Source: Candidatus Peribacteraceae bacterium (lineage in GTDB: Bacteria; Patescibacteriota; Gracilibacteria; Peribacterales; Peribacteraceae). From it: a DNA stretch of 28,801 bases. The position numbers were made by a program, and so were the translations under genes. The stretch spans positions 1 to 28,801 of the forward strand of contig JAGOUB010000001.1 of NCBI GenBank assembly GCA_018061525.1, read 5' to 3'. Positions 16,625-28,633 of the stretch are shown in pieces. The number at the start of each line of letters is the position of its first letter. The stretch's first letter is position 1. Under the pieces are notes generated by a model that was given only the letters and a program-made list of their open reading frames with translations, made no database searches and had not been told where the DNA came from.

Positions 16625-18447
<1,823 letters not shown>

Positions 18448-19004: not shown

Positions 19005-19805
19005 TCACAGGCACTCCCGGCAGACCACCTCCCGCTCCTCGGGCAGCAGCAGCGCCCGGGCGCGCTCGCGGTGCGCTTCGGGCACGCGGGACAGCAGCTC
19101 TTGGAGAAAGCCCTCTGTGAGCATCGTTCGGGCCTCTGCTGGGGCGATACCGCGCGCCGCACAGGCGAAGACGTCCTCGGCCGTCAGGCGCGTGACCGTG
19201 GCGCCGTGGCTGGCCCTCACGTCGTTGGTGCGGATCTCCAGGGCCGGCACGGCCTCGATGCGCGCCTGCGGGTCGAGCATGAGCGCCTTCTGGCTGAGGT
19301 AGGTCTGCGTGCCGCCGCCATGCTCCCCAATCTCGATCAGTCCGTGCGCGTCGATGCGTCCGCGGCCCTTGGCTGCCAGCCGCATGGCCGTCTCTCCCCC
19401 GCCGCGCGGCCCGTCAAAAATATTCTCGGCTGTGATTCGCAGCCGCTGCCCATCATCGGCTAGCGCGATCCAATCCACCGAGCTCTTGGCGTCGGGGCCG
19501 GCCAGATGCGAGCGCAGCGTCTGGTGTACTTCACCGCCGCCGACCGACACCAGGTGCCAGCGGACCTCCGAGCCGCCGGCCAGCTCGGAGGAGAGTTCGA
19601 TCTCGGCGCTCTCCCCTGCTGGCAGCGCCTGCAGCACCGTGCAGTCACAGACCGCTCCCGCACCCAGCTCCAACCGCAGGGCTCGGAGTCGGGTTCCCGC
19701 TTCCAATGAAACGAACAGGTTGGCCGTCTCGCCCGCTGCCAACGTTACCGTCTGCGCTGCCAGAGCGGCATTGAGGGAATGGCCGATGTTGGGCGTCTTC
19801 GCCAT
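19005..19805 (-). CDS. sufD: SufD-like Fe-S assembly protein (short)
   Basis: SufBD beta-helix C-terminal half: QTYLSQKALML...ARIEAVPALEIRTNDVRASHGATV, ARGI...EAR.MLTEGFL. Start taken 8 nt after CATACT. Confidence 0.85.
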   Translation of the reverse strand: MAKTPNIGHSLNAALAAQTVTLAAGETANLFVSLEAGTRLRALRLELGAGAVCDCTVLQALPAGESAEIELSSELAGGSEVRWHLVSVGGGEVHQTLRSHLAGPDAKSSVDWIALADDGQRLRITAENIFDGPRGGGETAMRLAAKGRGRIDAHGLIEIGEHGGGTQTYLSQKALMLDPQARIEAVPALEIRTNDVRASHGATVTRLTAEDVFACAARGIAPAEARTMLTEGFLQELLSRVPEAHRERARALLLPEEREVVCRECL

Positions 19806-19884
19806 GCCCATGGAGTATGGCGCCGCCCGCCCCTGTCGGGAAGGACGCAAATCGGCTATACTAGTGAGATTCCTCCCCCTTTGT

Positions 19885-20154
19885 ATGTCGACCATCCCAC
19901 CCCTCGGCCCCAGCGACCGCGTCCAGCCCGTCTCTCCCGCCGCCGACGTGGGTGACGCCACTCGCCAGCCCAAGCCCCAGCCCGAGCAGCTCACGCCGAA
20001 GAAGCAGGTCGTCCTACGCGACGACGGCCAAGTAGAGATTCACCTTGAGGCGGGAGATCCGGTGGTCGTAGCCCTCGACGAGTTCGTCGCCAAGTACCGT
20101 GAGATTTTCGGCCAAGATCCACCCTCCGGATTGCTCGTGAACGAGCAGGCTTGA
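19885..20154 (+). CDS. Small hypothetical protein (89 aa)
   Basis: Plausible codon usage, TATACT at 19857-19862, pyrimidine-rich leader. Confidence 0.6.
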   Translation: MSTIPPLGPSDRVQPVSPAADVGDATRQPKPQPEQLTPKKQVVLRDDGQVEIHLEAGDPVVVALDEFVAKYREIFGQDPPSGLLVNEQA

Positions 20155-20161
20155 GACAGCG

Positions 20162-20187
20162 AAAAAAGCCTGGGGATGTCCCCAGGC
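20162..20187 (-). terminator. Intrinsic terminator
   Basis: Minus strand GCCTGGGG-acat-CCCCAGGC followed by TTTTTT. Confidence 0.8.
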
Positions 20188-20197
20188 GGTTCGGTCG

Positions 20198-20659
20198 TCA
20201 TTTGACGACCTGGATGGCCTTCAGGGCCGCTCTGTCGTGGCCCATGAAGTAGCGGGCGTAGGGGATGCTGATCCGCTCGTTGATGATCCTAAGCCCGCCG
20301 GTGGCGGCATGCAGGACCACCTGGCGCATCCAGCTCGAGTCCGGCCAGAGCAGGGCGAAGAGAGTCACATCGCGTCCGTGCGATTCGTACTGTTCCAGGA
20401 GTCGGACGCGCTGACGGTCATCCGCCACCATCTGCCCGATGATCGGTCCCAATTCCTCCTCGGCCTCGCGGATCATGCCGTCCACCACGCAGCAATCCGT
20501 TTCTTTCAGGCAGCCGTAGCACGTGACCTGGATGAACCCGGGCCACGTCTCGTACGCCATCCGCTCGGGGTCGAAGTGGCCCCGGGCATGCATCACGGCC
20601 ACGCGCCCGATCTCGGGCAGATCCGTCACGATCACTAGTCCTGTCGCTTGCGGTTTCAA
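20198..20659 (-). CDS. Degenerate NUDIX-like hydrolase
   Basis: G.LKETD......MIREAEEELG resembles the Nudix box. TTG start with an AAGGAGG SD. Confidence 0.6.
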   Translation of the reverse strand: MKPQATGLVIVTDLPEIGRVAVMHARGHFDPERMAYETWPGFIQVTCYGCLKETDCCVVDGMIREAEEELGPIIGQMVADDRQRVRLLEQYESHGRDVTLFALLWPDSSWMRQVVLHAATGGLRIINERISIPYARYFMGHDRAALKAIQVVK

Positions 20660-20703
20660 AGGACCTCCTTTAGCGCGAAAGCACCTGTTTCGATGATGGT
20701 ATT

Positions 20704-20731
20704 ATTATACGTATTTTATTGATATTGGCAA
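20704..20731 (-). promoter_or_regulatory. Near-consensus sigma70 promoter for the NUDIX-like gene
   Basis: Minus strand TTGCCA-16 nt-TATAAT in an AT-rich patch immediately after the sufB stop. Confidence 0.7.
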
Positions 20732-22165
20732 TCATCCGACGGAGCCCTCCATCTCGAGCTCGATCAGGCGATTCATCTCCACGGCGTACTCCAGCGGGAG
20801 CAGGCGGACGATGGGCTCGATGAAGCCCGAGACGATCATCGCCTTGGCCTCCTCTTCGCTGAGTCCGCGTGATTGCAGGTAGAAGATGTCTTCGGCCGAG
20901 AGCTTCCCCACCGTCGCCTCGTGCGCCACGGTCACGTCGTCGGTCTGCACGTCGATGTCGGGGATGGTGTCGGTGCGGCTGAACTCATCGAGCAGCAGCG
21001 CGTCGCACTCCACGCTGGCGGCGCTGCCGACGGCCTGCGGGGCCACCTTGAGCACGCCGCGGTACACGGCCGCGCCGCCGCCCTTGCTGATGGATTTACT
21101 GACCACGTTGCTGGAGGTGCGCGGAGCCAGATGAAAGACCTTGGCGCCCGTGTCCTGCCACTGGCCGGCATTGGCGAAGGCGATGGCCATGTGGTCGGCA
21201 CGCGCGCCCTCGCCCACGAGCATGGAGCAGGGATAGAGCATCGTCGCGCCGCTGCCCATGTTGCCGCCGATCCACTCGATGGCGCCGTCCCGCTCCACGA
21301 TCGCACGCTTGGTGTTGAGGTTATACGTGTCGCGGCTCCAGTTCTCGACCGAGCTGTAGCGGCAGTGCGCGCCGGGCTTTACGAAGACTTCCACCAGGCC
21401 GGCGTGCAGCGCTTGGCTGCCGTACTTGGGCGCGCTGCAGCCCTCGATGTAGTGCACTGAGGCGCCCTCCTCTACCACGATCAGCGTGTGTTCGAACTGG
21501 CCCATGTTGCGCGCATTCATGCGGAAATACGCCTGCAGCGGATCACGGACCTTCACGCCCTTCGGCACGTACAAGAAGGTGCCGCCGCTCCAAACCGCGC
21601 CGTGCAGCGCCGCGAATTTGTGGTCGGCGGGCGGCACACACTTCATGAAGTACTCCTTCACCAGCGCCTCGTGCGAATGTAGGGCAACGTCCATATCCAG
21701 GAACACCACGCCGAGCTCGTCCCACTCCTTCTTGAGTGAGTGGTAGATGACTTCGCTCTCGTACTGCGCGCCCACGCCGGCCAGCACCTTGCGCTCGGCT
21801 TCGGGAATACCGAGGCGGTCGTAGACGCGGCGGATCTCCTCGGGCACTTCGCCCCAGGTGGCCGACTCGCCGGCGCCGGCCGAGGCATAATAGATGATGT
21901 CGTCGAGGTCGAGCCTGGAGAGATCGGCGCCCCAGGTGGGCATCGGCTTCTCTCTAAAAATCTTCAGCGATTCCAAGCGGTGCGCGAGCATCCACTCCGG
22001 CTCGTTCTTATCGGCGCTGATCTTTCGGACGAGGTCTTCGTCCACGCCGCGCTTGGCCCCCACCGCGTACGGCGAGGGGTTTGGGGTATCGAGAATCTCA
22101 CGCGATAAGCCGGCGAAAATGCCCTGATCGTCGTTTTTAGCCGTTGCTGTCGGTTCCTTTCCCAA
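20732..22165 (-). CDS. sufB: Fe-S cluster assembly scaffold SufB
   Basis: LAGVGAQYESE, FAALHGAVWSGGTFLYVPKGV, QFEHTLI, YIEGCSAP, LHAGLVE, YSSVENWS, HEATVGK, FYLQSRGL, LPLEYAVE. TTG start 7 nt after TATACT. Confidence 0.96.
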   Translation of the reverse strand: MGKEPTATAKNDDQGIFAGLSREILDTPNPSPYAVGAKRGVDEDLVRKISADKNEPEWMLAHRLESLKIFREKPMPTWGADLSRLDLDDIIYYASAGAGESATWGEVPEEIRRVYDRLGIPEAERKVLAGVGAQYESEVIYHSLKKEWDELGVVFLDMDVALHSHEALVKEYFMKCVPPADHKFAALHGAVWSGGTFLYVPKGVKVRDPLQAYFRMNARNMGQFEHTLIVVEEGASVHYIEGCSAPKYGSQALHAGLVEVFVKPGAHCRYSSVENWSRDTYNLNTKRAIVERDGAIEWIGGNMGSGATMLYPCSMLVGEGARADHMAIAFANAGQWQDTGAKVFHLAPRTSSNVVSKSISKGGGAAVYRGVLKVAPQAVGSAASVECDALLLDEFSRTDTIPDIDVQTDDVTVAHEATVGKLSAEDIFYLQSRGLSEEEAKAMIVSGFIEPIVRLLPLEYAVEMNRLIELEMEGSVG

Positions 22166-22208
22166 GCGACGAAGTATAGCACATCCGCGCTTTCCGGAGA
22201 CAATCGGC

Positions 22209-23495
22209 TCAGGCCGCCTGGACCGTCGCGGCCGAGAGAGCGCTCATCAGCTGGAGCTGGGTCTTGGTCTGCAGAATCATGATGCGCTGCCTGGCGATGA
22301 TCTGGTCCTTGTCTTCGAGCAGGCAGATTTCAGCCATCGTCTCGTCGATCTCGCGGCGCAGCTTGTCTACCGACCACATCAGGCGGGCGATGATCTGCTC
22401 TTTGGCGCCGAGCTCATTGAGGAGTCCGCGCCCTTCGGCGTTGCGCATGAGGAAGGCGTAGAGCTTTGGGTCTTCTTCTTTCATCCGCTGCTTCTTCACG
22501 CGCTTGTGGCTGCCGGCGGCCGCATCGGCGGCGTCGACCATCAGCTGGAAAGCGTTAAACGCGACGGTATCGAAGGTGACCTCCTCGCTGTCGGCGCTCT
22601 GGTCGGCGGCCTGTTCCACTGCGCGTTCTACGGCGGGAGACAAGCGCGACGAGCCGATGCTCACCGAGGGCACGAAGGTCGAGGGCAATTGGTTGCGAAT
22701 GTCGGTGAGGGCCTCGCGCCGTTCGCCGTCGCTGCCCATGGCCAGCACGCTCTCGCGGCGGTCCTCGCCGGCGAAGCCGTAGTCCAGCAGGAAGGCGGCG
22801 TCGTCGAATCTCACAAAATCCTCGCTCAACGCACGATCGCCCTGGATGACGGCGCGCAGGCGGTCCTCCAGCTCACTCAGCACGGCGTCGGTCAGGGGCG
22901 AGCGTGAGCGGACTTTCATCATGAACTCATCGCCGCCGACGCTGTAGGCCTCGGTCCGGAGCCCCTGCTCTTGGCACCAGGCTGCCAATGCCTCCGGCGG
23001 CCGCACTAGGATATCGGCCAGGCGCTGCAGGTAGGCGCAGGCGTTACTGTGGTTCGTGCAGTCGACGATCGTCTTCATGCCGTCCACATCCAGGAAGACG
23101 GCGCCGGTATGCTCGATGACGGGCTTAGCTGCGGGATCAAGCAGCTCCTGCTCCAGCTCGTGGGCGATGATCGGCCGCAGGCACTGGTAGCTCTGGATGA
23201 TCGTGCCGTTGTGCGAGAGCACCAGGTCGGTGGCCACCTCCTTGTAGCCGGCCTTCACGCGCTGATTGAGAGCGGCCTCCATCTGCTCGCCCGTGAGGTG
23301 GTTTTGCGGATCGGTAAAGACGCTGCGCAAGATGACCACCTCGCCGTTCACGCGCTCGCGCAGGTACGGCGGCATTTGCTGGAGCAGGCGCTCGTAGAGG
23401 GGCGGACGCGCAGTGTCGGCGCGCAACGGTTCGGCGAGCCGCGAGAGTTCGGAACGCCAGTCGTCGTGGGCCGATACTGAATCCAAGTGAGGCAT
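22209..23495 (-). CDS. GGDEF-domain nucleotide cyclase-like protein with a divergent base-specificity site and C-terminal coiled coil
   Basis: AVFLDVDGMK...D...H, YSVGGDEF (22923-22937), SVSIG, ADAA....K. Confidence 0.8.
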   Translation of the reverse strand: MPHLDSVSAHDDWRSELSRLAEPLRADTARPPLYERLLQQMPPYLRERVNGEVVILRSVFTDPQNHLTGEQMEAALNQRVKAGYKEVATDLVLSHNGTIIQSYQCLRPIIAHELEQELLDPAAKPVIEHTGAVFLDVDGMKTIVDCTNHSNACAYLQRLADILVRPPEALAAWCQEQGLRTEAYSVGGDEFMMKVRSRSPLTDAVLSELEDRLRAVIQGDRALSEDFVRFDDAAFLLDYGFAGEDRRESVLAMGSDGERREALTDIRNQLPSTFVPSVSIGSSRLSPAVERAVEQAADQSADSEEVTFDTVAFNAFQLMVDAADAAAGSHKRVKKQRMKEEDPKLYAFLMRNAEGRGLLNELGAKEQIIARLMWSVDKLRREIDETMAEICLLEDKDQIIARQRIMILQTKTQLQLMSALSAATVQAA

Positions 23496-23580
23496 TCGGG
23501 CAGCCCTTTTACCGGCTCAAATCCACCTGCGCAACCTTTTCTGTACTTTTTTCTTTTTCAGGATGAAATATATTTCTGAG

Positions 23581-24024
23581 TCAGCGCTTCTGGAACAGTC
23601 CTGCGAGCAGCAAGACGACGGCGCCGATGGTGATGCACGAGTCGGCCACGTTGAAGATGGGGAAGGTTCCCACTTGGAACATGTCGGTCACGAGACCGTC
23701 CTGTGCGCGATCGAGCAGGTTGCCGAGCGCACCGCCGATGATCAGTCCGAAGCCCGCCTGCGCCAGCGGCGAGCGCGCGTCCTTGAGTGCGACCCACACC
23801 ACCAAGAGCAACGCGATGATGATCAAGATCGTCTGCACGGCCGGCGCGAACGTGAGGCCAAAGGCGATGCCGGGATTGAAGGCGAGCACCAATCCAACCC
23901 ACTCGCCGATGATCGCGATGCGGCCGGTGAGCAGCGCGTCCGCTAAGAATTTGCCGAGCAGGCTCAGCGCCAGCGCTACAACAGCGGCGATGAGGAGCGG
24001 GTGGCGGTCGCGAATCGTGAGCAT
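23581..24024 (-). CDS. lspA: Lipoprotein signal peptidase II
   Basis: NPGIAFG, GGALGNLLDR, G.VTDMF, FPIFNVADSCITIG. Confidence 0.95.
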   Translation of the reverse strand: MLTIRDRHPLLIAAVVALALSLLGKFLADALLTGRIAIIGEWVGLVLAFNPGIAFGLTFAPAVQTILIIIALLLVVWVALKDARSPLAQAGFGLIIGGALGNLLDRAQDGLVTDMFQVGTFPIFNVADSCITIGAVVLLLAGLFQKR

Positions 24025-24059
24025 GCGAAAACTCTAGCGGCGCGTTCCGGTGCGGTCGA

Positions 24060-24350
24060 TCAGCTCTCGTTCACTTCGATCTCCACCTCGCCCTCGGCTT
24101 TCACCCGCGTCTGGCAGCCCAGGCGGTAGGGATCCATCGTCACGCCCATGTTCTCCTCGCGGTCATTGCGGTCGTTCAAATTCTCCATGCCCGCCTTCAC
24201 CTGGCAGAGGCAGGTGGTGCAGAAGCCGTTGCCGCCGCAGGCGTGCTCCATGGGGATGGCGTTATCGAGCGCGATCTTGAGCACGCTCTGGCCTTCGGCC
24301 GCCTCGACGGTCTTGCTCTGGCCGGCGTAGTGGAATGTCACCTTGGTCAC
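24060..24350 (-). CDS. fdx: [2Fe-2S] ferredoxin (adrenodoxin/ISC type)
   Basis: HACGGNGFCTTC and RLGCQ. GTG start at 24350, 7 nt after TACCCT. Confidence 0.9.
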   Translation of the reverse strand: MTKVTFHYAGQSKTVEAAEGQSVLKIALDNAIPMEHACGGNGFCTTCLCQVKAGMENLNDRNDREENMGVTMDPYRLGCQTRVKAEGEVEIEVNES

Positions 24351-24399
24351 GGGCGCCAGGGTAGCGCCTGCGCCCCTTCGGGCCAATGCGGCGGACCGA

Positions 24400-24427
24400 T
24401 TGACAATTGGTCGATGCGTAGCAGAAT
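24400..24427 (+). promoter_or_regulatory. Sigma70 promoter for the small ORFan
   Basis: TTGACA-16 nt-CAGAAT. Confidence 0.55.
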
Positions 24428-24460
24428 GCGCGCGCGTTCGTTCCTATCTGGAGACCTGTC

Positions 24461-24724
24461 ATGCGTTGTCTTGTCCGAGCCGTCTGCCTCGTCGCCGCTT
24501 TCGTCGCCCTGGCGGGCGCCTCCTACCACTGCCACAAGGCGGACATGATCGGTCCGTCGATCATTCGCGCTAAGGATGCCGATCTGAAGCTTGTCCTCCA
24601 GGCACAGCTCGTCGAGCACAAGCTGGCGATGACCGCCTTCATCGTGGTCCTGCTCCTCGTGGGCACGGCCTTCGCCATCTTGGACCCCAGCCCGCCCGAG
24701 CGCGCCGACGCCGTGACGGACTGA
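24461..24724 (+). CDS. Small two-TM hypothetical protein
   Basis: 87 aa with two hydrophobic segments. GGAG SD, own promoter and terminator. Confidence 0.6.
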   Translation: MRCLVRAVCLVAAFVALAGASYHCHKADMIGPSIIRAKDADLKLVLQAQLVEHKLAMTAFIVVLLLVGTAFAILDPSPPERADAVTD

Positions 24725-24737
24725 ACAACCGTTCCCC

Positions 24738-24765
24738 TGGGGCCGACCGCGTGTCGGCCCCATTT
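24738..24765 (+). terminator. Intrinsic terminator
   Basis: TGGGGCCGAC-cgcgt-GTCGGCCCCA followed by TTT. Confidence 0.7.
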
Positions 24766-24807
24766 CTCCTGGCCCAACCTCCGCTGTTCTCCGATACTGT
24801 CCACGTC

Positions 24808-25593
24808 ATGCCTTCGCCCCTACTCTCGCTCCGCGGCCTGCGCGTCACCATCGCTGGCAAAGAGGTCGTGTCCGGCGTCGACCTGGAGATCCCCCAAGGC
24901 GAGGTCCACGCGCTGATGGGGCAGAACGGTTCGGGCAAGAGCAGCCTGGTGAGCGCGCTTGCCGGGCATCCTTCCTTCGAGGTCACTGCCGGCAGCGCCG
25001 AGTTCTTGGGGCAGGACCTGCTCGCTATGGAGCCGCACGAGCGAGCTCGCGCCGGACTCTTCCTAGCCTTCCAGTACCCGCGTGAATTGGCCGGCGTCTC
25101 GCTGCGTCAGTTCTTGTTCGCGGCCGTCTCGGCCCAGCGCACGGCCCGGGATCCTTCGGCGCCGCCCCTCTCGCCCATCGCCTTCCGCGACGAGTTGGCC
25201 GCGGCCATGGCTGCCCTCCACGTGGATCCCGCCTTCGCCGAGCGCTCGCTCAATCAGGGTTTCAGCGGCGGTGAGAAGAAAAAAGTAGAGGTGCTCCAGC
25301 TCTCCGTCCTCAAGCCGCGCCTGGCCCTGCTCGACGAGACCGACTCCGGCCTCGACGTGGATGCGCTCAAGATCGTGGCCGCCGGCGTGGAGCGCCAGCG
25401 CGGGTCCGAGTTCGGCGCGTTGGTCGTCACGCACTACGCGCGCATCCTCTCGCACCTCAAGCCCGACCGCGTGCACGTCATGCTCGCCGGCCGCCTGGTG
25501 GAGTCTGGCGGCGCCGATCTGGCCCACACCCTCGAGCGCGACGGCTACGCCAAGTACCGCTCAGCCGCCCAGTCGATCCCGCTGGATCGCTGA
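24808..25593 (+). CDS. sufC: Fe-S cluster assembly ABC ATPase SufC
   Basis: GEVHALMGQNGSGKS, GLFLAFQYP, GFSGGEKKK.E.LQ, LDETDSGLDVDAL, VTHY.R, GG..LA..LE..GY. Confidence 0.96.
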   Translation: MPSPLLSLRGLRVTIAGKEVVSGVDLEIPQGEVHALMGQNGSGKSSLVSALAGHPSFEVTAGSAEFLGQDLLAMEPHERARAGLFLAFQYPRELAGVSLRQFLFAAVSAQRTARDPSAPPLSPIAFRDELAAAMAALHVDPAFAERSLNQGFSGGEKKKVEVLQLSVLKPRLALLDETDSGLDVDALKIVAAGVERQRGSEFGALVVTHYARILSHLKPDRVHVMLAGRLVESGGADLAHTLERDGYAKYRSAAQSIPLDR

Positions 25594-25685: not shown

Positions 25686-26438
25686 ATGGCCGATACGACC
25701 ACCGTTAACGTCCGCCCGCCTGTATGGGCCCTCATCATCGCCGTCGCCCTCGGCGGCGGGTTCTACCTGGCCGGTAAGAACATCGAGACCGACTCGGTGC
25801 GCAATCCGCCCATGGTCATTTCTGTCAGCGGCGAAGGCAAGGTGACCGGCACGCCGGACATCGCCATGCTCTCGTTCGGCGTCCAGACCGACCGCCTGCC
25901 TACCGCGGAAGGTGCCACCAAAGATCTCGGTACGCGCATGAAGAAGATCGTCGACGCGCTCAAGGCGCAGGGCATTGCCGAAGGCGACATCGGAACACAG
26001 TCGCTCTCGCTCTACCCCGTCTACGACTACAACGACGGCCGCACGATCCCGCGCGGCTACCAGGCTGGCCAGACGCTCTCCGTGAAGGTGCGCGACACGG
26101 CCAAGGTCGGTGATGTGCTCTCGCTCGCCGCCACCAGCGGTGCCAACCAGATCGGCGGCGTCTCGTTCACGATCGACGATCCGGAAGCTCTCCGTGATGC
26201 CGCTCGCTCCGAGGCCATCGCCCAGGCCCAGGAGAAGGCCCAGGAGCTCGCCGGCCAGCTCGGCGGCCGCCTTGGCCGCATGACCGGCTTCAGCGAGAAC
26301 AGCGGCGGCTATTACCCGCCCATGATGTACGCCCGCGACGCGATGGCCGGAGCCGTGGCCAATGAGGCTAAGCTGGAAGTGCCCGCCGGCGACCAGGAGG
26401 TGACGGTGAACGTGTCTCTCACCTATGAGCTTCGCTGA
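25686..26438 (+). CDS. SIMPL (DUF541, YggE/BP26) domain protein
   Basis: N-terminal TM, ISVSGEGKV...PDIA, LK..GI...DI.T....LYP.Y, GANQIGGVSF, AR..AI..A..KA..LA, V.V.VS.TYEL. Confidence 0.9.
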   Translation: MADTTTVNVRPPVWALIIAVALGGGFYLAGKNIETDSVRNPPMVISVSGEGKVTGTPDIAMLSFGVQTDRLPTAEGATKDLGTRMKKIVDALKAQGIAEGDIGTQSLSLYPVYDYNDGRTIPRGYQAGQTLSVKVRDTAKVGDVLSLAATSGANQIGGVSFTIDDPEALRDAARSEAIAQAQEKAQELAGQLGGRLGRMTGFSENSGGYYPPMMYARDAMAGAVANEAKLEVPAGDQEVTVNVSLTYELR

Positions 26439-26997
26439 AGCCGCGTCGTTCCTGGCGAGCTACATCCGCCATCCCCGCGTCGTCTCGTCCGTCATTCCCA
26501 CGTCCAAGACCAGTGCCCGCGCGATCGCCGCCCTCGTGGCGGCCCGCGCGGGCTTGGTCGTGGTGGAGTACGGACCCGGCAGTGGTCCGGTGAGCGCCGC
26601 CGTGCTCGAACGCTTGGGTCCCGACGGCCGCCTCATCCTGATCGAGATGACGCCTGCATTGGCCGCCGGCCTCAGCCGTCGCTTCGCGCATGACGCGCGG
26701 GTGGATGTGGTGGAGGGGGATGCCGTCGACGTCGAGGCGATCCTCGCCGCTCGCGGGCTCACGCACGCCGACTACGTTCTGTGCAGCATCCCACTCTCGC
26801 TCATCGACCCGCCGGTCCGCGAGCGCATCCTGACCGCCACCGCACAACTGCTCGGACCCCAGGGTCGCTTTATCGTCTTCCTCTTTCGCCCCAAGGCGAC
26901 GGCGTCGCACCTGGCGCCGCACTTTCCGCGCACGGCTCCGCCTCGCCTGCTCCCGTGGAATATCCCGCCGCTCTGGCTCTTCGACGGTCGAATTTGA
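26425..26997 (+). CDS. SAM-dependent methyltransferase, PmtA/OlsG-like (phospholipid or ornithine-lipid N-methyltransferase)
   Basis: FL......P..V.SVIPTS, VVEYGPGSGPVS, LILIE, GDA, D.VLCSIPL. Overlaps the SIMPL stop by 14 nt. Confidence 0.8.
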   Translation: MSFAEAASFLASYIRHPRVVSSVIPTSKTSARAIAALVAARAGLVVVEYGPGSGPVSAAVLERLGPDGRLILIEMTPALAAGLSRRFAHDARVDVVEGDAVDVEAILAARGLTHADYVLCSIPLSLIDPPVRERILTATAQLLGPQGRFIVFLFRPKATASHLAPHFPRTAPPRLLPWNIPPLWLFDGRI

Positions 26998-27096
26998 CCC
27001 CAACCCAGCCGTGACGAACTGTCGAGTTTGGGTTTCTGGCGCCTTGTCACCTATGTTTTACGCTGCTAGGCTCATTTGCCGTGTAAACCCGGTTCC

Positions 27097-27861
27097 ATGG
27101 TCTACCTTGTCGTCCTCATCGGATCGGCCAGCATCCTTGCCGGTATCCTGCTGGGCAAGCTCTTGCTCAAGCAGCGCGCTGTCCGCCGTTTCGTCCGCAG
27201 CATCCGCCAGCGGCTGCAGTCGGCTGAGGATCGCGGTGCGGTGATGGTGGAGGAGACGGTGGTGGAGCGCCCGGCCAAGGACCCTCGCACCTCCGCGATC
27301 GAATTGCAGCAGGTCCGCTCGTTCGTGCGCCTGGCCGAGAAGGCCCTGGCCCAGGAGAAGACCGAAGAAGCCGAGCGCCACTACATCCAGGCGCTCACCA
27401 TCCAGCCGCACGCCCAGGACGTGAAGGCCCAGCTCGCCAAGCTCTATCTCACCAGCAACCGCGAGGCCAAGGCCGAAGCCATGTACCGCGAGCTGCTCAA
27501 GGAGCGCGACGAGGTGAGCTTCCATGCCAACCTCGGCCTGGCCTACTACCGCCAGGGCAAGTACGTGGACGCCTGCTTCGCCTACCAAGAGGCGCTCAAC
27601 CTCGATCCCAAGAACCCCGCCCGCGCCGCCGCCCTCGGCCGTGCCTGCATCGCTGCCCAGCGCTTCGCCGAGGCTATCCCGTTGCTCGAGAAGGCGTCGA
27701 GCTTCCTGGCGCGCGACACCGAGATCCTCCACCTGCTCGCCGAGTGCTACCTGCAGATCGGCGACAAGGAGCACGCCGAAGAGACGTACCGCCGCATCAA
27801 CAAGCTTGAGCCCTACGACGAGGCGGTGAAGCAGAAGCTGCTGAGCTTGGCGCAGGCCTGA
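27097..27861 (+). CDS. Membrane-anchored tetratricopeptide repeat protein
   Basis: N-terminal TM followed by TPR-like helices (ANLGLAYYRQGKY.DA..AYQEAL.LDP; LLAECYLQIGD...A...Y). Confidence 0.85.
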   Translation: MVYLVVLIGSASILAGILLGKLLLKQRAVRRFVRSIRQRLQSAEDRGAVMVEETVVERPAKDPRTSAIELQQVRSFVRLAEKALAQEKTEEAERHYIQALTIQPHAQDVKAQLAKLYLTSNREAKAEAMYRELLKERDEVSFHANLGLAYYRQGKYVDACFAYQEALNLDPKNPARAAALGRACIAAQRFAEAIPLLEKASSFLARDTEILHLLAECYLQIGDKEHAEETYRRINKLEPYDEAVKQKLLSLAQA

Positions 27862-27862
27862 G

Positions 27863-28633
27863 TCACTCGATCCGTCCGATCATGATGTTGTTCGTCCGCG
27901 ACGACGTCACGAATATCCAGCGATCGTCGCCGAGCCCGAAGCCGTCTTCGAGCTCGTTCGTCAGGGGCAGTACGTTGCGTGCGGCGTCGAGAGCGTTTCC
28001 TTTCGCGATCGCGGCGACTAGGTCGATCGTGTCCACCGCCCAACCGCGGCCGGCGGTGATGTTGCGGAAGGCGATGAGGCGCTCACCGTCCCACCAGAGC
28101 GATTGCGTGAAGGGCGCGGTTGGGAGCGTGTGCCGCACAATGCCATCGGCGCCTGTCCGCACAGCAGATTGCATCGTCTCGGGATCGAGCAGGCGGATCG
28201 TCGGCGAGACATCGCCGTAATCGGCGGTTGCCAAATACGCCGTGTCGGACAGCGTGACGAACTCCGGCCGGCAGCCGTTCACGGCTGTGTCGTCCTCTGT
28301 TTTGTGCAAGATGCAGCCGTCGAGCGTGCCCGTCTCGAGCGCGCTCTCCAGGTTGATCCGGTAGATCGCCCCCTGCTGGCGCACGGTGTTCCCCAGGAAC
28401 GTGCCGTAGCGGTCGTGGTGCGTTAGGCCTGTCGGATGGGTGATCGGCGCCGGCAGACGCACCTGGCGGCCCGTGGGGACGGCGTGCTCATCGCACTCCA
28501 CGATCAGTCCTTCTTTGCCGCCCATGTCGCCGTACACGTAATAGTGCGCGCCGATGCGGGCGACGCCCTGCGCCGCCCCGACGGGAAGCGTGGCGGTGAT
28601 CTCGGCCGAGAAGCGGCGGGCAGTATCGTCCAT
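27863..28633 (-). CDS. Hypothetical protein, possible beta-propeller
   Basis: 256-aa ORF with short beta-strand repeats (AQGVA, HPTGLT, FTQSLWWDG, ELEDG). Confidence 0.6.
   Translation of the reverse strand: MDDTARRFSAEITATLPVGAAQGVARIGAHYYVYGDMGGKEGLIVECDEHAVPTGRQVRLPAPITHPTGLTHHDRYGTFLGNTVRQQGAIYRINLESALETGTLDGCILHKTEDDTAVNGCRPEFVTLSDTAYLATADYGDVSPTIRLLDPETMQSAVRTGADGIVRHTLPTAPFTQSLWWDGERLIAFRNITAGRGWAVDTIDLVAAIAKGNALDAARNVLPLTNELEDGFGLGDDRWIFVTSSRTNNIMIGRIE

What the first reader, a model, noticed from the sequence alone, without database searches (positions are those of the whole stretch)
22209..23495. GGDEF enzyme with catalytic residues intact but all guanine-reading residues swapped: candidate novel nucleotide-messenger synthase
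Aligned by eye to PleD numbering, the metal and catalytic positions are kept: D327 (DVD), K332, D336, H340, the GGDEF motif and the late Lys (ADAAAGSHK). The three base-recognition residues are all changed: N335 to V, D344 to C, R366 to S. Degenerate GGDEFs usually lose the signature motif itself. In Hypr GGDEFs (GacA), substitution at the D344 position is known to permit 3',3'-cGAMP synthesis. The protein also has a long insertion before the SIG strand, a novel N-terminal region, a C-terminal coiled coil that could dimerise it, and an A-tract promoter region with a 12-bp palindrome (GAAATATATTTC, 23565-23576). It may make a non-c-di-GMP product.
Basis: partly seen in the sequence, partly recalled or inferred. 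Interest (0 to 1): 0.7.

Follow-up and report, generated by a model that had tools for sequence, protein, structure and literature searches.

The report
Divergent GGDEF enzyme lacking guanine readers
A tiny-genome Peribacteria bacterium encodes a distant relative of the enzymes that make the bacterial signal c-di-GMP, with the catalytic residues intact but the guanine-recognising residues replaced, so it may make a different signalling nucleotide, which only a biochemical assay can show.

Summary
Window 22209-23495 (-) is a 428-aa ORF. It gets no Pfam, NCBIfam, PADLOC or PHROGs hit. Profile-profile comparison shows a GGDEF palm domain (hhalign prob 99%, E 2.5e-18 and 4.3e-20).

In that alignment D136, K141, D145, H149, GGDEF 187-191, K331 and K335 sit at the canonical catalytic and phosphate positions. 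The canonical N, D and R are V144, C153 and S185.

The protein belongs to a small GGDEF offshoot found in Patescibacteria: 175 representatives at E<=1e-3. One well-supported clade of 38 representatives has lost N335 and D344, yet keeps the metal Asp, G-D-E and the late Lys in 38 of 38. V/C/S is fixed in 5 of 5 genomes of one Peribacteria genus, with dN/dS 0.16-0.33.

These 5 genomes show no canonical GGDEF, EAL or PilZ.

Best reading (0.45): an active, dimeric NTP-condensing enzyme that is no longer guanine-specific. The product is unknown, and no fold or complex prediction was available. The 12-bp palindrome is not conserved. The sufB linkage holds only within the genus.

The parts
22209..23495 (-). 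Whole ORF, 428 aa (P0001), divergent GGDEF-family protein
   Evidence: orthologues in 4 Peribacteria MAGs
23211..23495 (-). N-terminal region, residues 1-95. No known family, probably helical. Strongly conserved among the orthologues.
   Evidence: no Pfam hit; orthologue alignment; Atlas part search gives only sub-threshold leads
22476..23210 (-). GGDEF-like palm domain, about residues 96-340, with two insertions
   Evidence: hhalign against canonical GGDEF: prob 99.0 and 99.3; family profile hits solved diguanylate cyclases down to E 6.7e-8; Atlas look-alikes are GGDEF clusters
23028..23090 (-). First catalytic motif, D136-L156 (DVDGMKTIVDCTNHSNACAYL). D136 = PleD D327, K141 = K332, V144 at N335, D145 = D336, C146 (clade-specific), H149 = H340, C153 at D344.
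22953..22982 (-). Insertion 1, residues 172-181, between the helix after motif 1 and the GGDEF strand. Shared by the whole family.
   Evidence: gap in the canonical template
22923..22943 (-). S185-V186-GGDEF (187-191). S185 sits at the PleD R366 position. G188, D189 and E190 are invariant in 134 of 134 family rows.
22674..22823 (-). Insertion 2, about residues 225-274, before the SVSIG strand. Family-specific and conserved (P271 in 109 of 134 rows).
22653..22667 (-). SVSIG strand, residues 277-281, equivalent to the canonical 'saSiG'
   Evidence: G281 in 125 of 134 rows
22485..22529 (-). AADAAAGSHKRVKKQ helix, residues 323-337. K331 = PleD K442 (133 of 134 rows). K335 sits at the R446 position (K in 119 rows, R in 9).
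22212..22475 (-). C-terminal extension, residues 341-428. It holds a family-conserved motif around R351 (112 of 134 rows), then a heptad-like tail of variable length in the orthologues.
23496..23563 (-). Non-coding block upstream of the ATG, conserved in 5 of 5 orthologous loci. It reads TTGCGC (23529-23534), a 17-nt spacer, TAAAAG (23506-23511), then 10 nt to the ATG. A possible promoter of a near-leaderless mRNA (inference).
   Evidence: the simple sigma-70 scan did not call it
23565..23576 (.). 12-bp palindrome GAAATATATTTC, just after the lspA stop. Kept only in the window and L001.

Best explanation
The gene encodes a catalytically competent GGDEF-type palm-domain enzyme. It is a genus-level variant of a Patescibacteria-borne offshoot of the diguanylate cyclases.

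Proposed mechanism, by analogy with solved GGDEF enzymes, inferred and not shown here. Two protomers are brought together by the helical N- and C-terminal extensions. Each binds one NTP-Mg through D136, D189/E190 of GGDEF, K331 and K335. Each attacks the other's alpha-phosphate to give a dinucleotide.

The residues that make canonical enzymes GTP-specific are replaced: N335 by V144, D344 by C153 and R366 by S185. The enzyme is therefore most likely no longer guanine-specific. It would accept ATP or mixed purines, as the Ser-for-Asp Hypr enzymes do, or another NTP. Its product would not be only c-di-GMP.

Shown: homology, register, residue identities, clade-wide conservation, purifying selection, and absence of recognisable c-di-GMP partners. 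Inferred: activity, dimerisation, substrate and product.
For: (1) Homology and register. hhalign of the close clade (A2) and of 60 diverse members (A3) against 10 PF00990-verified proteins gives prob 99.0, E 2.5e-18 and prob 99.3, E 4.3e-20. The A3 profile hits 67 PDB sequences at E<=1, led by diguanylate cyclases. 26 of 60 members match PF00990 at E<=0.01. 29 of 30 Atlas feature hits are GGDEF clusters.

(2) The catalytic core is invariant over deep divergence. D136, G188, D189 and E190 are kept in 134 of 134 rows and K331 in 133 of 134. Mean column identity among 60 members is only 19%.

(3) Loss of N335 and D344 marks one clade of 38 representatives (SH-like support 99). That clade keeps D136, GDE and K331 in 38 of 38 rows and gains C146 in 30 of 38. 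This is the pattern expected of a changed function, not of decay.

(4) V/C/S is present in 5 of 5 genomes of the genus. Pairwise dN/dS is 0.157-0.330 over 10 pairs.

(5) All 134 rows have D at the centre of GGDEF. Hallberg 2019 reports that natural enzymes with a short Ser/Thr at the D344 position carry GGDE[F/Y] exclusively (passage).

(6) Two family members, P0037 and P0047, are tandem fusions of two complete modules. This fits a module that works as a dimer.

(7) There is precedent for related palm enzymes that make non-G dinucleotides and tune the product through helix residues: Hypr GGDEF and mCpol OptS.

(8) No PF00990 over cut-off, EAL or PilZ was found in the own genome or in the four same-genus genomes. 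No HD_5, MshEN or DAC was found in the own genome.
Against: The protein itself gets no hit in Pfam, NCBIfam, PADLOC or PHROGs even at E<=10, and none in PDB by sequence.

No structure could be predicted. The Atlas model's TM-scores to GGDEF proteins are only 0.36-0.41.

PMC7288161 (passage) says D327, N335 and D344 were reported essential for GGDEF activity. Hallberg 2019 (passage) says the D-to-S change inactivated four of five canonical enzymes. Loss of both base readers could therefore mean loss of substrate binding.

Absence of EAL, PilZ and HD-GYP does not separate this clade from family members that keep N and D. Eight other family-bearing genomes show EAL in 1 of 8, PilZ in 0 of 8 and HD_5 in 0 of 8.

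No candidate receptor or degrading enzyme for any product was identified.

The own genome is only 86.64% complete.

The tree is FastTree with local supports, and several long branches were flagged. dS exceeds 1 in 8 of the 10 pairs.

Evidence of expression is limited to short contigs in two RNA libraries of one study, which may hold DNA.
Confidence: 0.45

Rival explanations
1. It is still an ordinary diguanylate cyclase. Guanine would be read by other residues, for example C146, T147, N148 or the insertions, and the product is c-di-GMP.
For: The whole catalytic apparatus of a DGC is present. More basal family members keep N and D (97 and 77 of 134 rows), and 26 keep the full N/D/R triad, so the ancestor was probably a DGC. 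One family-bearing relative, G182, has two EAL ORFs.
Against: N335 and D344 are invariant or nearly invariant in the canonical reference set and are described as the specificity-determining pair (passages). Both are lost together throughout a 38-representative clade. No EAL, HD-GYP, PilZ or MshEN was found in the own genome. No EAL or PilZ was found in the four same-genus genomes.
Confidence: 0.15
2. It binds or hydrolyses a nucleotide but makes no dinucleotide messenger. It would be a regulatory, scaffolding or NTPase protein built on a GGDEF fold.
For: Losing both base readers inactivates most canonical enzymes when engineered (passage of PMC6456294). No downstream partners were found. The long helical extensions and conserved insertions could be interaction surfaces.
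Against: The family keeps D136, G-D-E and K331 in 133-134 of 134 rows. From recall, not tested here: non-catalytic GGDEF domains usually lose the GGDEF motif and keep an RxxD I-site. The sequence has no RxxD at the expected place; residues 178-181 are GLRT. Tandem two-module fusions fit a two-site condensing enzyme better than a simple binder.
Confidence: 0.25
3. Its role is tied to Fe-S or redox status. Four cysteines conserved in the genus (C105, C146, C153, C174), two of them in the nucleotide pocket, would sense or bind a metal or cluster. The gene would be co-expressed with sufB.
For: The gene lies 43 nt upstream of sufB on the same strand, with no terminator-like site called in 22000-24500. 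sufB follows directly in 4 of 5 genus genomes. All four cysteines are kept in 5 of 5 orthologues. C146 is clade-specific. A 2Fe-2S ferredoxin, sufC and a sufD-like gene are close by.
Against: The sufB linkage is not found outside the genus, apart from one locus about 1 kb away (L047). C105, C153 and C174 are not conserved in the sister subclades; P0009 and P0010 lack two or one of them. No metal-binding motif or family was detected. Spatial proximity of the cysteines could not be checked without a model.
Confidence: 0.1

Closest known systems
Canonical GGDEF diguanylate cyclases (PleD, WspR, TM1788/4urs, SiaD/7e6g)
   Same: The palm domain aligns over the whole length. The metal Asp, K332, D336 and H340 equivalents, the GGDEF hairpin, and K442 and R446-position lysines are the same. 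The helical N-terminal segment aligns weakly to the SiaD stalk region.
   Different: N335, D344 and R366 are V, C and S. There are two insertions, of 10 and about 50 residues. A conserved C-terminal extension centres on R351. There is no RxxD at the I-site position (the position is recalled). The protein itself fails PF00990. No sensor domain was found.
Hypr GGDEF enzymes (GacA, Bd0367), which make 3',3'-cGAMP
   Same: A short uncharged side chain replaces the Asp that reads the Watson-Crick face, and it is combined with GGDEF rather than GGEEF.
   Different: Hypr enzymes have Ser/Thr and keep the sugar-face Asn (Asn339 in GacA). Here the residue is Cys and the Asn is Val. The status of the cross-dimer residue is unresolved, because R107 aligns to the canonical Arg only at the weak edge of the alignment. 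No cGAMP riboswitch could be assessed.
mCpol / OptS of the Panoptes defence system, and Cas10 palm domains
   Same: They are related palm folds that make non-guanine cyclic dinucleotides, with variable helix residues that tune the product (passages of PMC12657218).
   Different: The paper says mCpol nearly lacks the GGDEF motif and is coupled to S-2TM-beta or other effectors. Here GGDEF is invariant and the neighbours are lspA and sufB. PF22335 matches 1 of 60 family members at E 1.1e-3 and does not match this protein. PADLOC gives no hit.

Membership tests
GGDEF domain superfamily (PF00990 fold) | Significant profile-level homology to verified GGDEF domains over the whole domain | tested here: met
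   hhalign prob 99.0, E 2.5e-18 and prob 99.3, E 4.3e-20 over 162 columns. All 10 of 10 reference proteins match PF00990.
GGDEF domain superfamily (PF00990 fold) | The protein itself reaches Pfam's gathering score for PF00990 | tested here: not met
   0 families at E<=10. Relative P0009 reaches 25.2 bits against a cut-off of 23.8. 26 of 60 family members match at E<=0.01.
GGDEF domain superfamily (PF00990 fold) | GG(D/E)EF motif on the hairpin, plus the metal-binding Asp of strand 1 | tested here: met
   G187-G188-D189-E190-F191 and D136. D136, G188, D189 and E190 are kept in 134 of 134 rows.
Diguanylate cyclase (c-di-GMP synthase) | Guanine-reading Asn335 and Asp344 (PleD numbering) | tested here: not met
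   V144 and C153 align to these positions. Their roles come from passages of PMC7288161 and PMC7186502.
Diguanylate cyclase (c-di-GMP synthase) | Arg two residues before GGDEF (PleD R366) | tested here: not met
   S185. The column is R in only 26 of 134 family rows.
Diguanylate cyclase (c-di-GMP synthase) | Phosphate-binding Lys442 and Arg446 | tested here: met
   K331 and K335. K331 is kept in 133 of 134 rows. Position 335 is K in 119 rows and R in 9.
Diguanylate cyclase (c-di-GMP synthase) | Makes c-di-GMP from two GTP as a homodimer | not testable with these tools
The only indirect hint is the tandem two-module fusions P0037 and P0047.
Hypr GGDEF (cGAMP synthase) | Ser/Thr at the D344 position together with GGDE[F/Y] | tested here: not met
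   The residue is Cys153, not Ser/Thr. The GGDEF part is met. The rule comes from a passage of PMC6456294.
Hypr GGDEF (cGAMP synthase) | Sugar-face Asn retained (Asn339 of GacA) | tested here: not met
   V144. Passage read.
mCpol / Cas10 palm | Closer to Cas10/mCpol profiles than to GGDEF, and coupled to a nucleotide-sensing effector gene | tested here: not met
   PF22335 matches 1 of 60 members and PF00990 matches 26 of 60. The neighbours are LspA, Fer2, SufB and SufC. PADLOC gives none.
Degenerate (receptor-type) GGDEF domains | Degenerate GGDEF motif with a retained RxxD I-site (definition recalled, not from a call) | tested here: not met
   The GGDEF motif is intact. Residues 178-181 are GLRT, not RxxD.

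The most novel reading that the evidence does not exclude
The protein represents a Patescibacteria clade of GGDEF-derived synthases (38 representatives at 50% identity) that gave up guanine recognition and make a nucleotide messenger other than c-di-GMP. Its receptors and degrading enzymes would be unknown, in organisms that otherwise show no cyclic-dinucleotide machinery. The subclades (V/C/S, V/G/x with AGDEF, K/T/A, I/T/T) may each have their own substrate.
Probability: 0.3. Interest if true: 0.85.

Novelty: new variant of a known kind. Interest (0 to 1): 0.62.

Why it matters
GGDEF enzymes are the largest family of bacterial second-messenger synthases. The only established natural change of their product is the Hypr Asp-to-Ser switch. 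Here a whole clade keeps every catalytic residue but has replaced both base-reading residues. It sits in ultra-small Patescibacteria genomes with no recognisable c-di-GMP turnover or receptors. If active, it would show that GGDEF chemistry has been re-aimed at another nucleotide. It would also open a signalling pathway in a phylum whose physiology is almost unknown. The subclade-specific residue sets give a natural series for learning how the pocket encodes specificity. If inactive, it is an unusual pseudo-enzyme that conserves the catalytic residues and discards the substrate readers.

Tried and rejected
Direct family scans of the protein found nothing: Pfam, NCBIfam, PADLOC and PHROGs at E<=10.

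PDB sequence searches with the protein and with the close-clade profile A2 gave no significant hit. The best GGDEF hit was 4rnf at E 1.4.

The RF01051 riboswitch search of the own genome found none. The control rang in no genome, so the answer is uninformative.

Metagenome scans with A2 and with a back-translated motif pattern found no relative. The viral scan with A3 was not run, because the alignment had no conserved stretch for a pattern.

The palindrome as a conserved operator is rejected. It is present only in the window and L001.

The simple sigma-70 scan called no promoter upstream of the gene, and no terminator between it and sufB.

sufB linkage as family-wide context is rejected. It is absent from the 8 more distant loci. 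It is absent from 24 of the 25 non-genus loci of the same taxonomic family within +/-1.5 kb; the exception is L047, about 1 kb away.

I asked whether clade members that lost N/D differ from N/D-keeping members in having EAL, PilZ or HD-GYP. They do not: nearly all of these genomes lack them.

Pfam scans of ten longer family members found no fused informative domains.

The Atlas search with residues 1-125 gave scores of 0.87 or less and TM of 0.42 or less, so no family can be named.

Read laying gave only 7 short contigs. Parts without cover say nothing. RNA-library contigs over the gene are a weak hint only.

Membership in mCpol/Cas10 and in receptor-type degenerate GGDEFs was considered and rejected (see Membership tests).

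Rows dropped before counts. The 134-row alignment, tallies and tree use the 155 proteins then held, minus 20 shorter than 300 aa, minus P0008, which departs from the family after residue about 128.

Supplements of papers were not opened. The supplementary lists of natural position-344 variants in Hallberg 2016 and 2019, and the mCpol tables of PMC12657218, might already include Cys or Val variants or this family.

The searches listed no paper on GGDEF proteins of CPR/Patescibacteria. In one search the 15 papers listed, of 31 found, had zero occurrences of 'GGDEF'. That is not proof that none exists.
Full report
THE OBSERVATION

Window 22209-23495 on the minus strand is an uninterrupted 428-aa ORF with an ATG start and a TGA stop.

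The protein matches nothing in Pfam, NCBIfam, PADLOC or PHROGs, even at E<=10. It matches nothing significant among PDB sequences. The GGDEF reading could therefore not be taken for granted.

IS IT A GGDEF DOMAIN, AND IS THE REGISTER RIGHT?

A word-indexed search found eight relatives. One of them, P0009 (31% identity), just passes PF00990 at 25.2 bits against a cut-off of 23.8.

A profile of the close relatives (A2) was scored against 1.84 billion representatives. It found 175 proteins at E<=1e-3, 75 at E<=1e-10 and 31 at E<=1e-30.

A profile of 60 diverse members (A3) hits 67 PDB sequences at E<=1. The list is led by diguanylate cyclases: 7e6g at 6.7e-8, 4urs at 2e-6, and PleD 1w25 at 0.14. 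Of the 60 members, 26 match PF00990 at E<=0.01.

I built a canonical reference set (A4) from five Patescibacteria RxGGDEF ORFs and five tail hits. All 10 of 10 match PF00990, best E 1.3e-50.
- hhalign of A2 against A4 gives probability 99.0, E 2.5e-18.
- hhalign of A3 against A4 gives probability 99.3, E 4.3e-20 over 162 columns, spanning the whole domain.

In these alignments the positions match as follows:
- D136, K141, D145 and H149 face the invariant D, K, D and H of the reference set.
- V144 faces its invariant Asn.
- C153 faces its nearly invariant Asp.
- S185 faces its invariant Arg.
- G187-F191 face GGDEF.
- K331 and K335 face the Lys and the Arg/Lys of 'AK..G(R/K)N'.

From motif spacing, and from passages of two reviews (PMC7288161, PMC7186502), these are PleD D327, K332, N335, D336, H340, D344, R366, G368-F372, K442 and R446.

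The family has a 10-residue insertion (residues 172-181) and a roughly 50-residue insertion (about 225-274) before the SVSIG strand.

The ESM Atlas agrees independently. 29 of 30 feature neighbours are GGDEF clusters. The Atlas's own model (pTM 0.64) aligns to GGDEF proteins, but only at TM 0.36-0.41. I could not make a model myself, because structure prediction was off.

WHAT KIND OF FAMILY IS THIS?

I aligned the 134 held members of at least 300 aa. This is 155 proteins minus 20 short ones and minus P0008, which departs from the family after residue about 128. Column tallies:
- Metal Asp: 134 of 134.
- Second Gly, Asp and Glu of GGDEF: 134 of 134 each.
- K331: 133 of 134.
- K141: K in 122 rows, R in 8.
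- D145: 117 rows.
- H149: 112 rows.
- N335 column: N 97, V 13, K 10, I 9.
- D344 column: D 77, T 22, N 14, C 8, G 6, S 4.
- R366 column: R in only 26 rows.
- Full N/D/R triad: 26 rows. V/C/S triad: 7 rows.

A FastTree on the domain columns, rooted on three canonical tail hits, places the window's protein in a clade of 38 representatives with SH-like support 99. In that clade N335 survives in one row and D344 in one row. Within it lies an 11-row 'V' clade (support 96) and the 6-row V/C/S clade (support 100).

Inside the 38-row clade, D136, G-D-E and K331 are kept in 38 of 38 rows. A Cys at position 146 appears in 30 of 38 rows, and C is not among the four commonest residues at that position outside the clade.

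Caveats: the tree method is quick, several long branches were flagged, and distant columns depend on one MAFFT alignment.

WHO CARRIES IT?

The four public genome records with an orthologue are all titled 'uncultured Candidatus Peribacteria'. P0013 is named a hypothetical protein of Candidatus Peregrinibacteria.

The window's genome is 0.95 Mb in 135 contigs and 86.64% complete.

In 401 genomes sampled across the phylum, 70 have a match at E<=1e-5. This tally includes one unpublished genome, G154, as a weak partial hit. Only about eight matches cover the family model end to end. The others hit the motif region and include plain RxGGDEF proteins.

In 151 genomes of the same taxonomic family, 40 have a match at E<=1e-10, in 28 of 84 genera. 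The own genus has it in 5 of 5 genomes, counting the window's. By coordinates, the other four genus genomes are the four named MAGs.

In the 30 loci returned for that taxonomic family, the triads are:
- V/C/S: 5, all from the genus.
- V/G/(S,A,T): 13, all with AGDEF.
- K/T/A: 6.
- Six other combinations: 1 each.

None keeps Asp at position 344, and 28 of 30 lack Asn at position 335. All keep D136 and G-D-E. K331 is missing only from one truncated ORF.

V/C/S is therefore a genus-level state inside a larger clade that abandoned the guanine readers.

SELECTION

Among the five orthologues, pairwise dN/dS (Nei-Gojobori) is 0.157-0.330 over 10 pairs. dS is already above 1 in 8 of the 10 pairs. V144, C153, S185 and the cysteines C105, C146 and C174 are identical in all five.

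CONTEXT

The gene lies between lspA (23581-24024, -) and sufB (20732-22165, -). A 2Fe-2S ferredoxin, a divergent sufC, a SIMPL protein and a sufD-like gene are nearby.

sufB starts 43 nt downstream, and no terminator-like site was called. sufB follows directly in 4 of the 5 genus genomes; in the fifth the gap is 1.6 kb. Outside the genus the linkage is not seen. The one exception is L047, where sufB lies about 1 kb away.

In four low-GC Patescibacteria loci the family gene sits by a roughly 1150-1180-aa ORF and a roughly 580-590-aa ORF. From their N-termini I read these as DnaE and ThrRS; this is recall and was not tested. The context therefore gives no family-wide functional partner.

About 70 nt upstream of the ATG is conserved in all five orthologues: TTGCGC, 17 nt, TAAAAG, 10 nt, ATG in the window. 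It may be a promoter for a near-leaderless mRNA (inference). The simple sigma-70 scan did not call it. The 12-bp palindrome lies upstream of this block and is kept only in the closest relative.

PARTNERS

The own genome has no match to PF00990, EAL, PilZ, HD_5 (HD-GYP), MshEN or DAC.

The four same-genus genomes (91-98% complete) have no PF00990 over cut-off, no EAL and no PilZ. The only sub-threshold PF00990 hit is the orthologue itself.

This absence does not discriminate within the family. Eight other family-bearing genomes, most of which keep N and D, show EAL in 1 of 8, PilZ in 0 of 8 and HD_5 in 0 of 8.

The riboswitch search was uninformative because its control was silent.

MECHANISM

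The roles of the conserved residues were read in passages of these papers:
- D327 and E370 hold the Mg ions.
- K442 and R446 hold the phosphates.
- The fourth GGDEF residue is the cross-dimer general base.
- N335 and D344 read the guanine.

All except the base readers are present here.

Hallberg 2019 reports that natural enzymes with a short Ser/Thr at position 344 always have GGDE[F/Y]. Every row of this family has Asp at the centre of the motif, which is compatible with a pocket that still holds a purine NTP against a short side chain. Cys153 is the nearest analogue of the Hypr Ser; that is my inference.

Two family members, P0037 and P0047, consist of two complete modules in tandem, as expected if the unit works as a dimer. 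The C-terminal tail shows modest heptad periodicity, reached by 26 of 2000 shuffles.

I therefore rank the readings as follows:
- An active dimeric condensing enzyme that has lost guanine specificity: 0.45.
- A non-synthase nucleotide-binding or hydrolysing protein: 0.25.
- A plain diguanylate cyclase: 0.15.
- A Cys/Fe-S-linked role tied to the suf cluster: 0.10.

EXPRESSION AND OCCURRENCE

Near-identical DNA is held by metagenome runs labelled wastewater, drinking water or simply metagenome, across 10 coded studies. Short contigs of 150-224 nt, 97-99% alike, from two metatranscriptomic libraries of one study lie on the gene. This is a weak hint, because such libraries can hold DNA.

COMPARISON AND NOVELTY

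The protein is a member of the GGDEF superfamily by profile homology. It fails the defining base-recognition features of diguanylate cyclases. It also fails the Ser/Thr-plus-Asn signature of Hypr enzymes.

It is not an mCpol. mCpol proteins nearly lack the GGDEF motif and are coupled to effectors. Here PF00990 matches 26 of 60 family members against 1 of 60 for PF22335.

Public sources name relatives 'hypothetical protein' or 'GGDEF domain-containing protein'. My five literature searches listed no paper on this family. Supplements were not seen.

I class it as a new variant of a known kind, with interest 0.62.

PAPERS: WHAT I SAW

For PMC7186502, PMC7288161, PMC6456294 and PMC12657218 I saw passages found by term search, plus the starts of abstracts. 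For all other papers I saw search listings only. The PleD I-site RxxD position and the general statement about receptor-type degenerate GGDEF domains are recalled, not read here.

Noticed in passing
window 16794-18291 (+): A complete bacterial 16S rRNA gene (RF00177, 1449.5 bits, model positions 1-1533). It explains the GC dip at 17-18 kb.
   Followed up: partly
window 20198-20659 (-): A 153-aa ORF between sufB and the sufD-like gene carries a Nudix-box-like G-x5-D-x8-REAxEELG. Support is weak: Pfam NUDIX E 0.078, and the two best PDB profile hits are both Nudix proteins at E 0.28 and 0.69. It is conserved in 3 of 4 orthologous loci. It could be a hydrolase for a nucleotide product.
   Followed up: partly
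window 19005-25593: A split suf cluster: sufD-like (-), Nudix-like ORF (-), sufB (-), the GGDEF-like gene (-), lspA (-), 2Fe-2S ferredoxin (-), then sufC on the opposite strand. The order is kept in L001, L003 and L004.
   Followed up: partly
window 23496-23563 (-): An upstream non-coding block is conserved in five genomes whose coding dS is about 1 or more. It has a TTGC-type hexamer, a 17-nt spacer and TAAAAG only 10 nt before the ATG, which suggests a near-leaderless transcript.
   Followed up: partly
P0037 and P0047 (proteins): Proteins of 987 and 998 aa made of two complete tandem copies of the family module, each at E 1e-71 to 1e-85 against the family profile.
   Followed up: partly
L027, L029, L030, L031: In four low-GC Patescibacteria genomes of three taxonomic families, the family gene sits in a recurring cluster. 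The cluster has a roughly 1150-1180-aa ORF and a roughly 580-590-aa ORF, read from their N-termini as DnaE and ThrRS (recalled, untested), and a roughly 380-400-aa ORF beginning MYIGKIETG.
   Followed up: no
G182:C3:13206-13853 and G182:C1:63485-63886: One related Peribacteria-family genome that carries a V/G/S-AGDEF family member also has two EAL-domain ORFs above Pfam's cut-off. The other 7 family-bearing genomes searched in that call and the five genomes of the window's genus have none.
   Followed up: no
window 26419-27003, 27058-27774, 27863-28633 (all -): Three ORFs of 194-256 aa have no Pfam family at E<=1, apart from one sub-threshold DUF6060 hit. orf238 and orf194 have relatives in the orthologous loci.
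   Followed up: no
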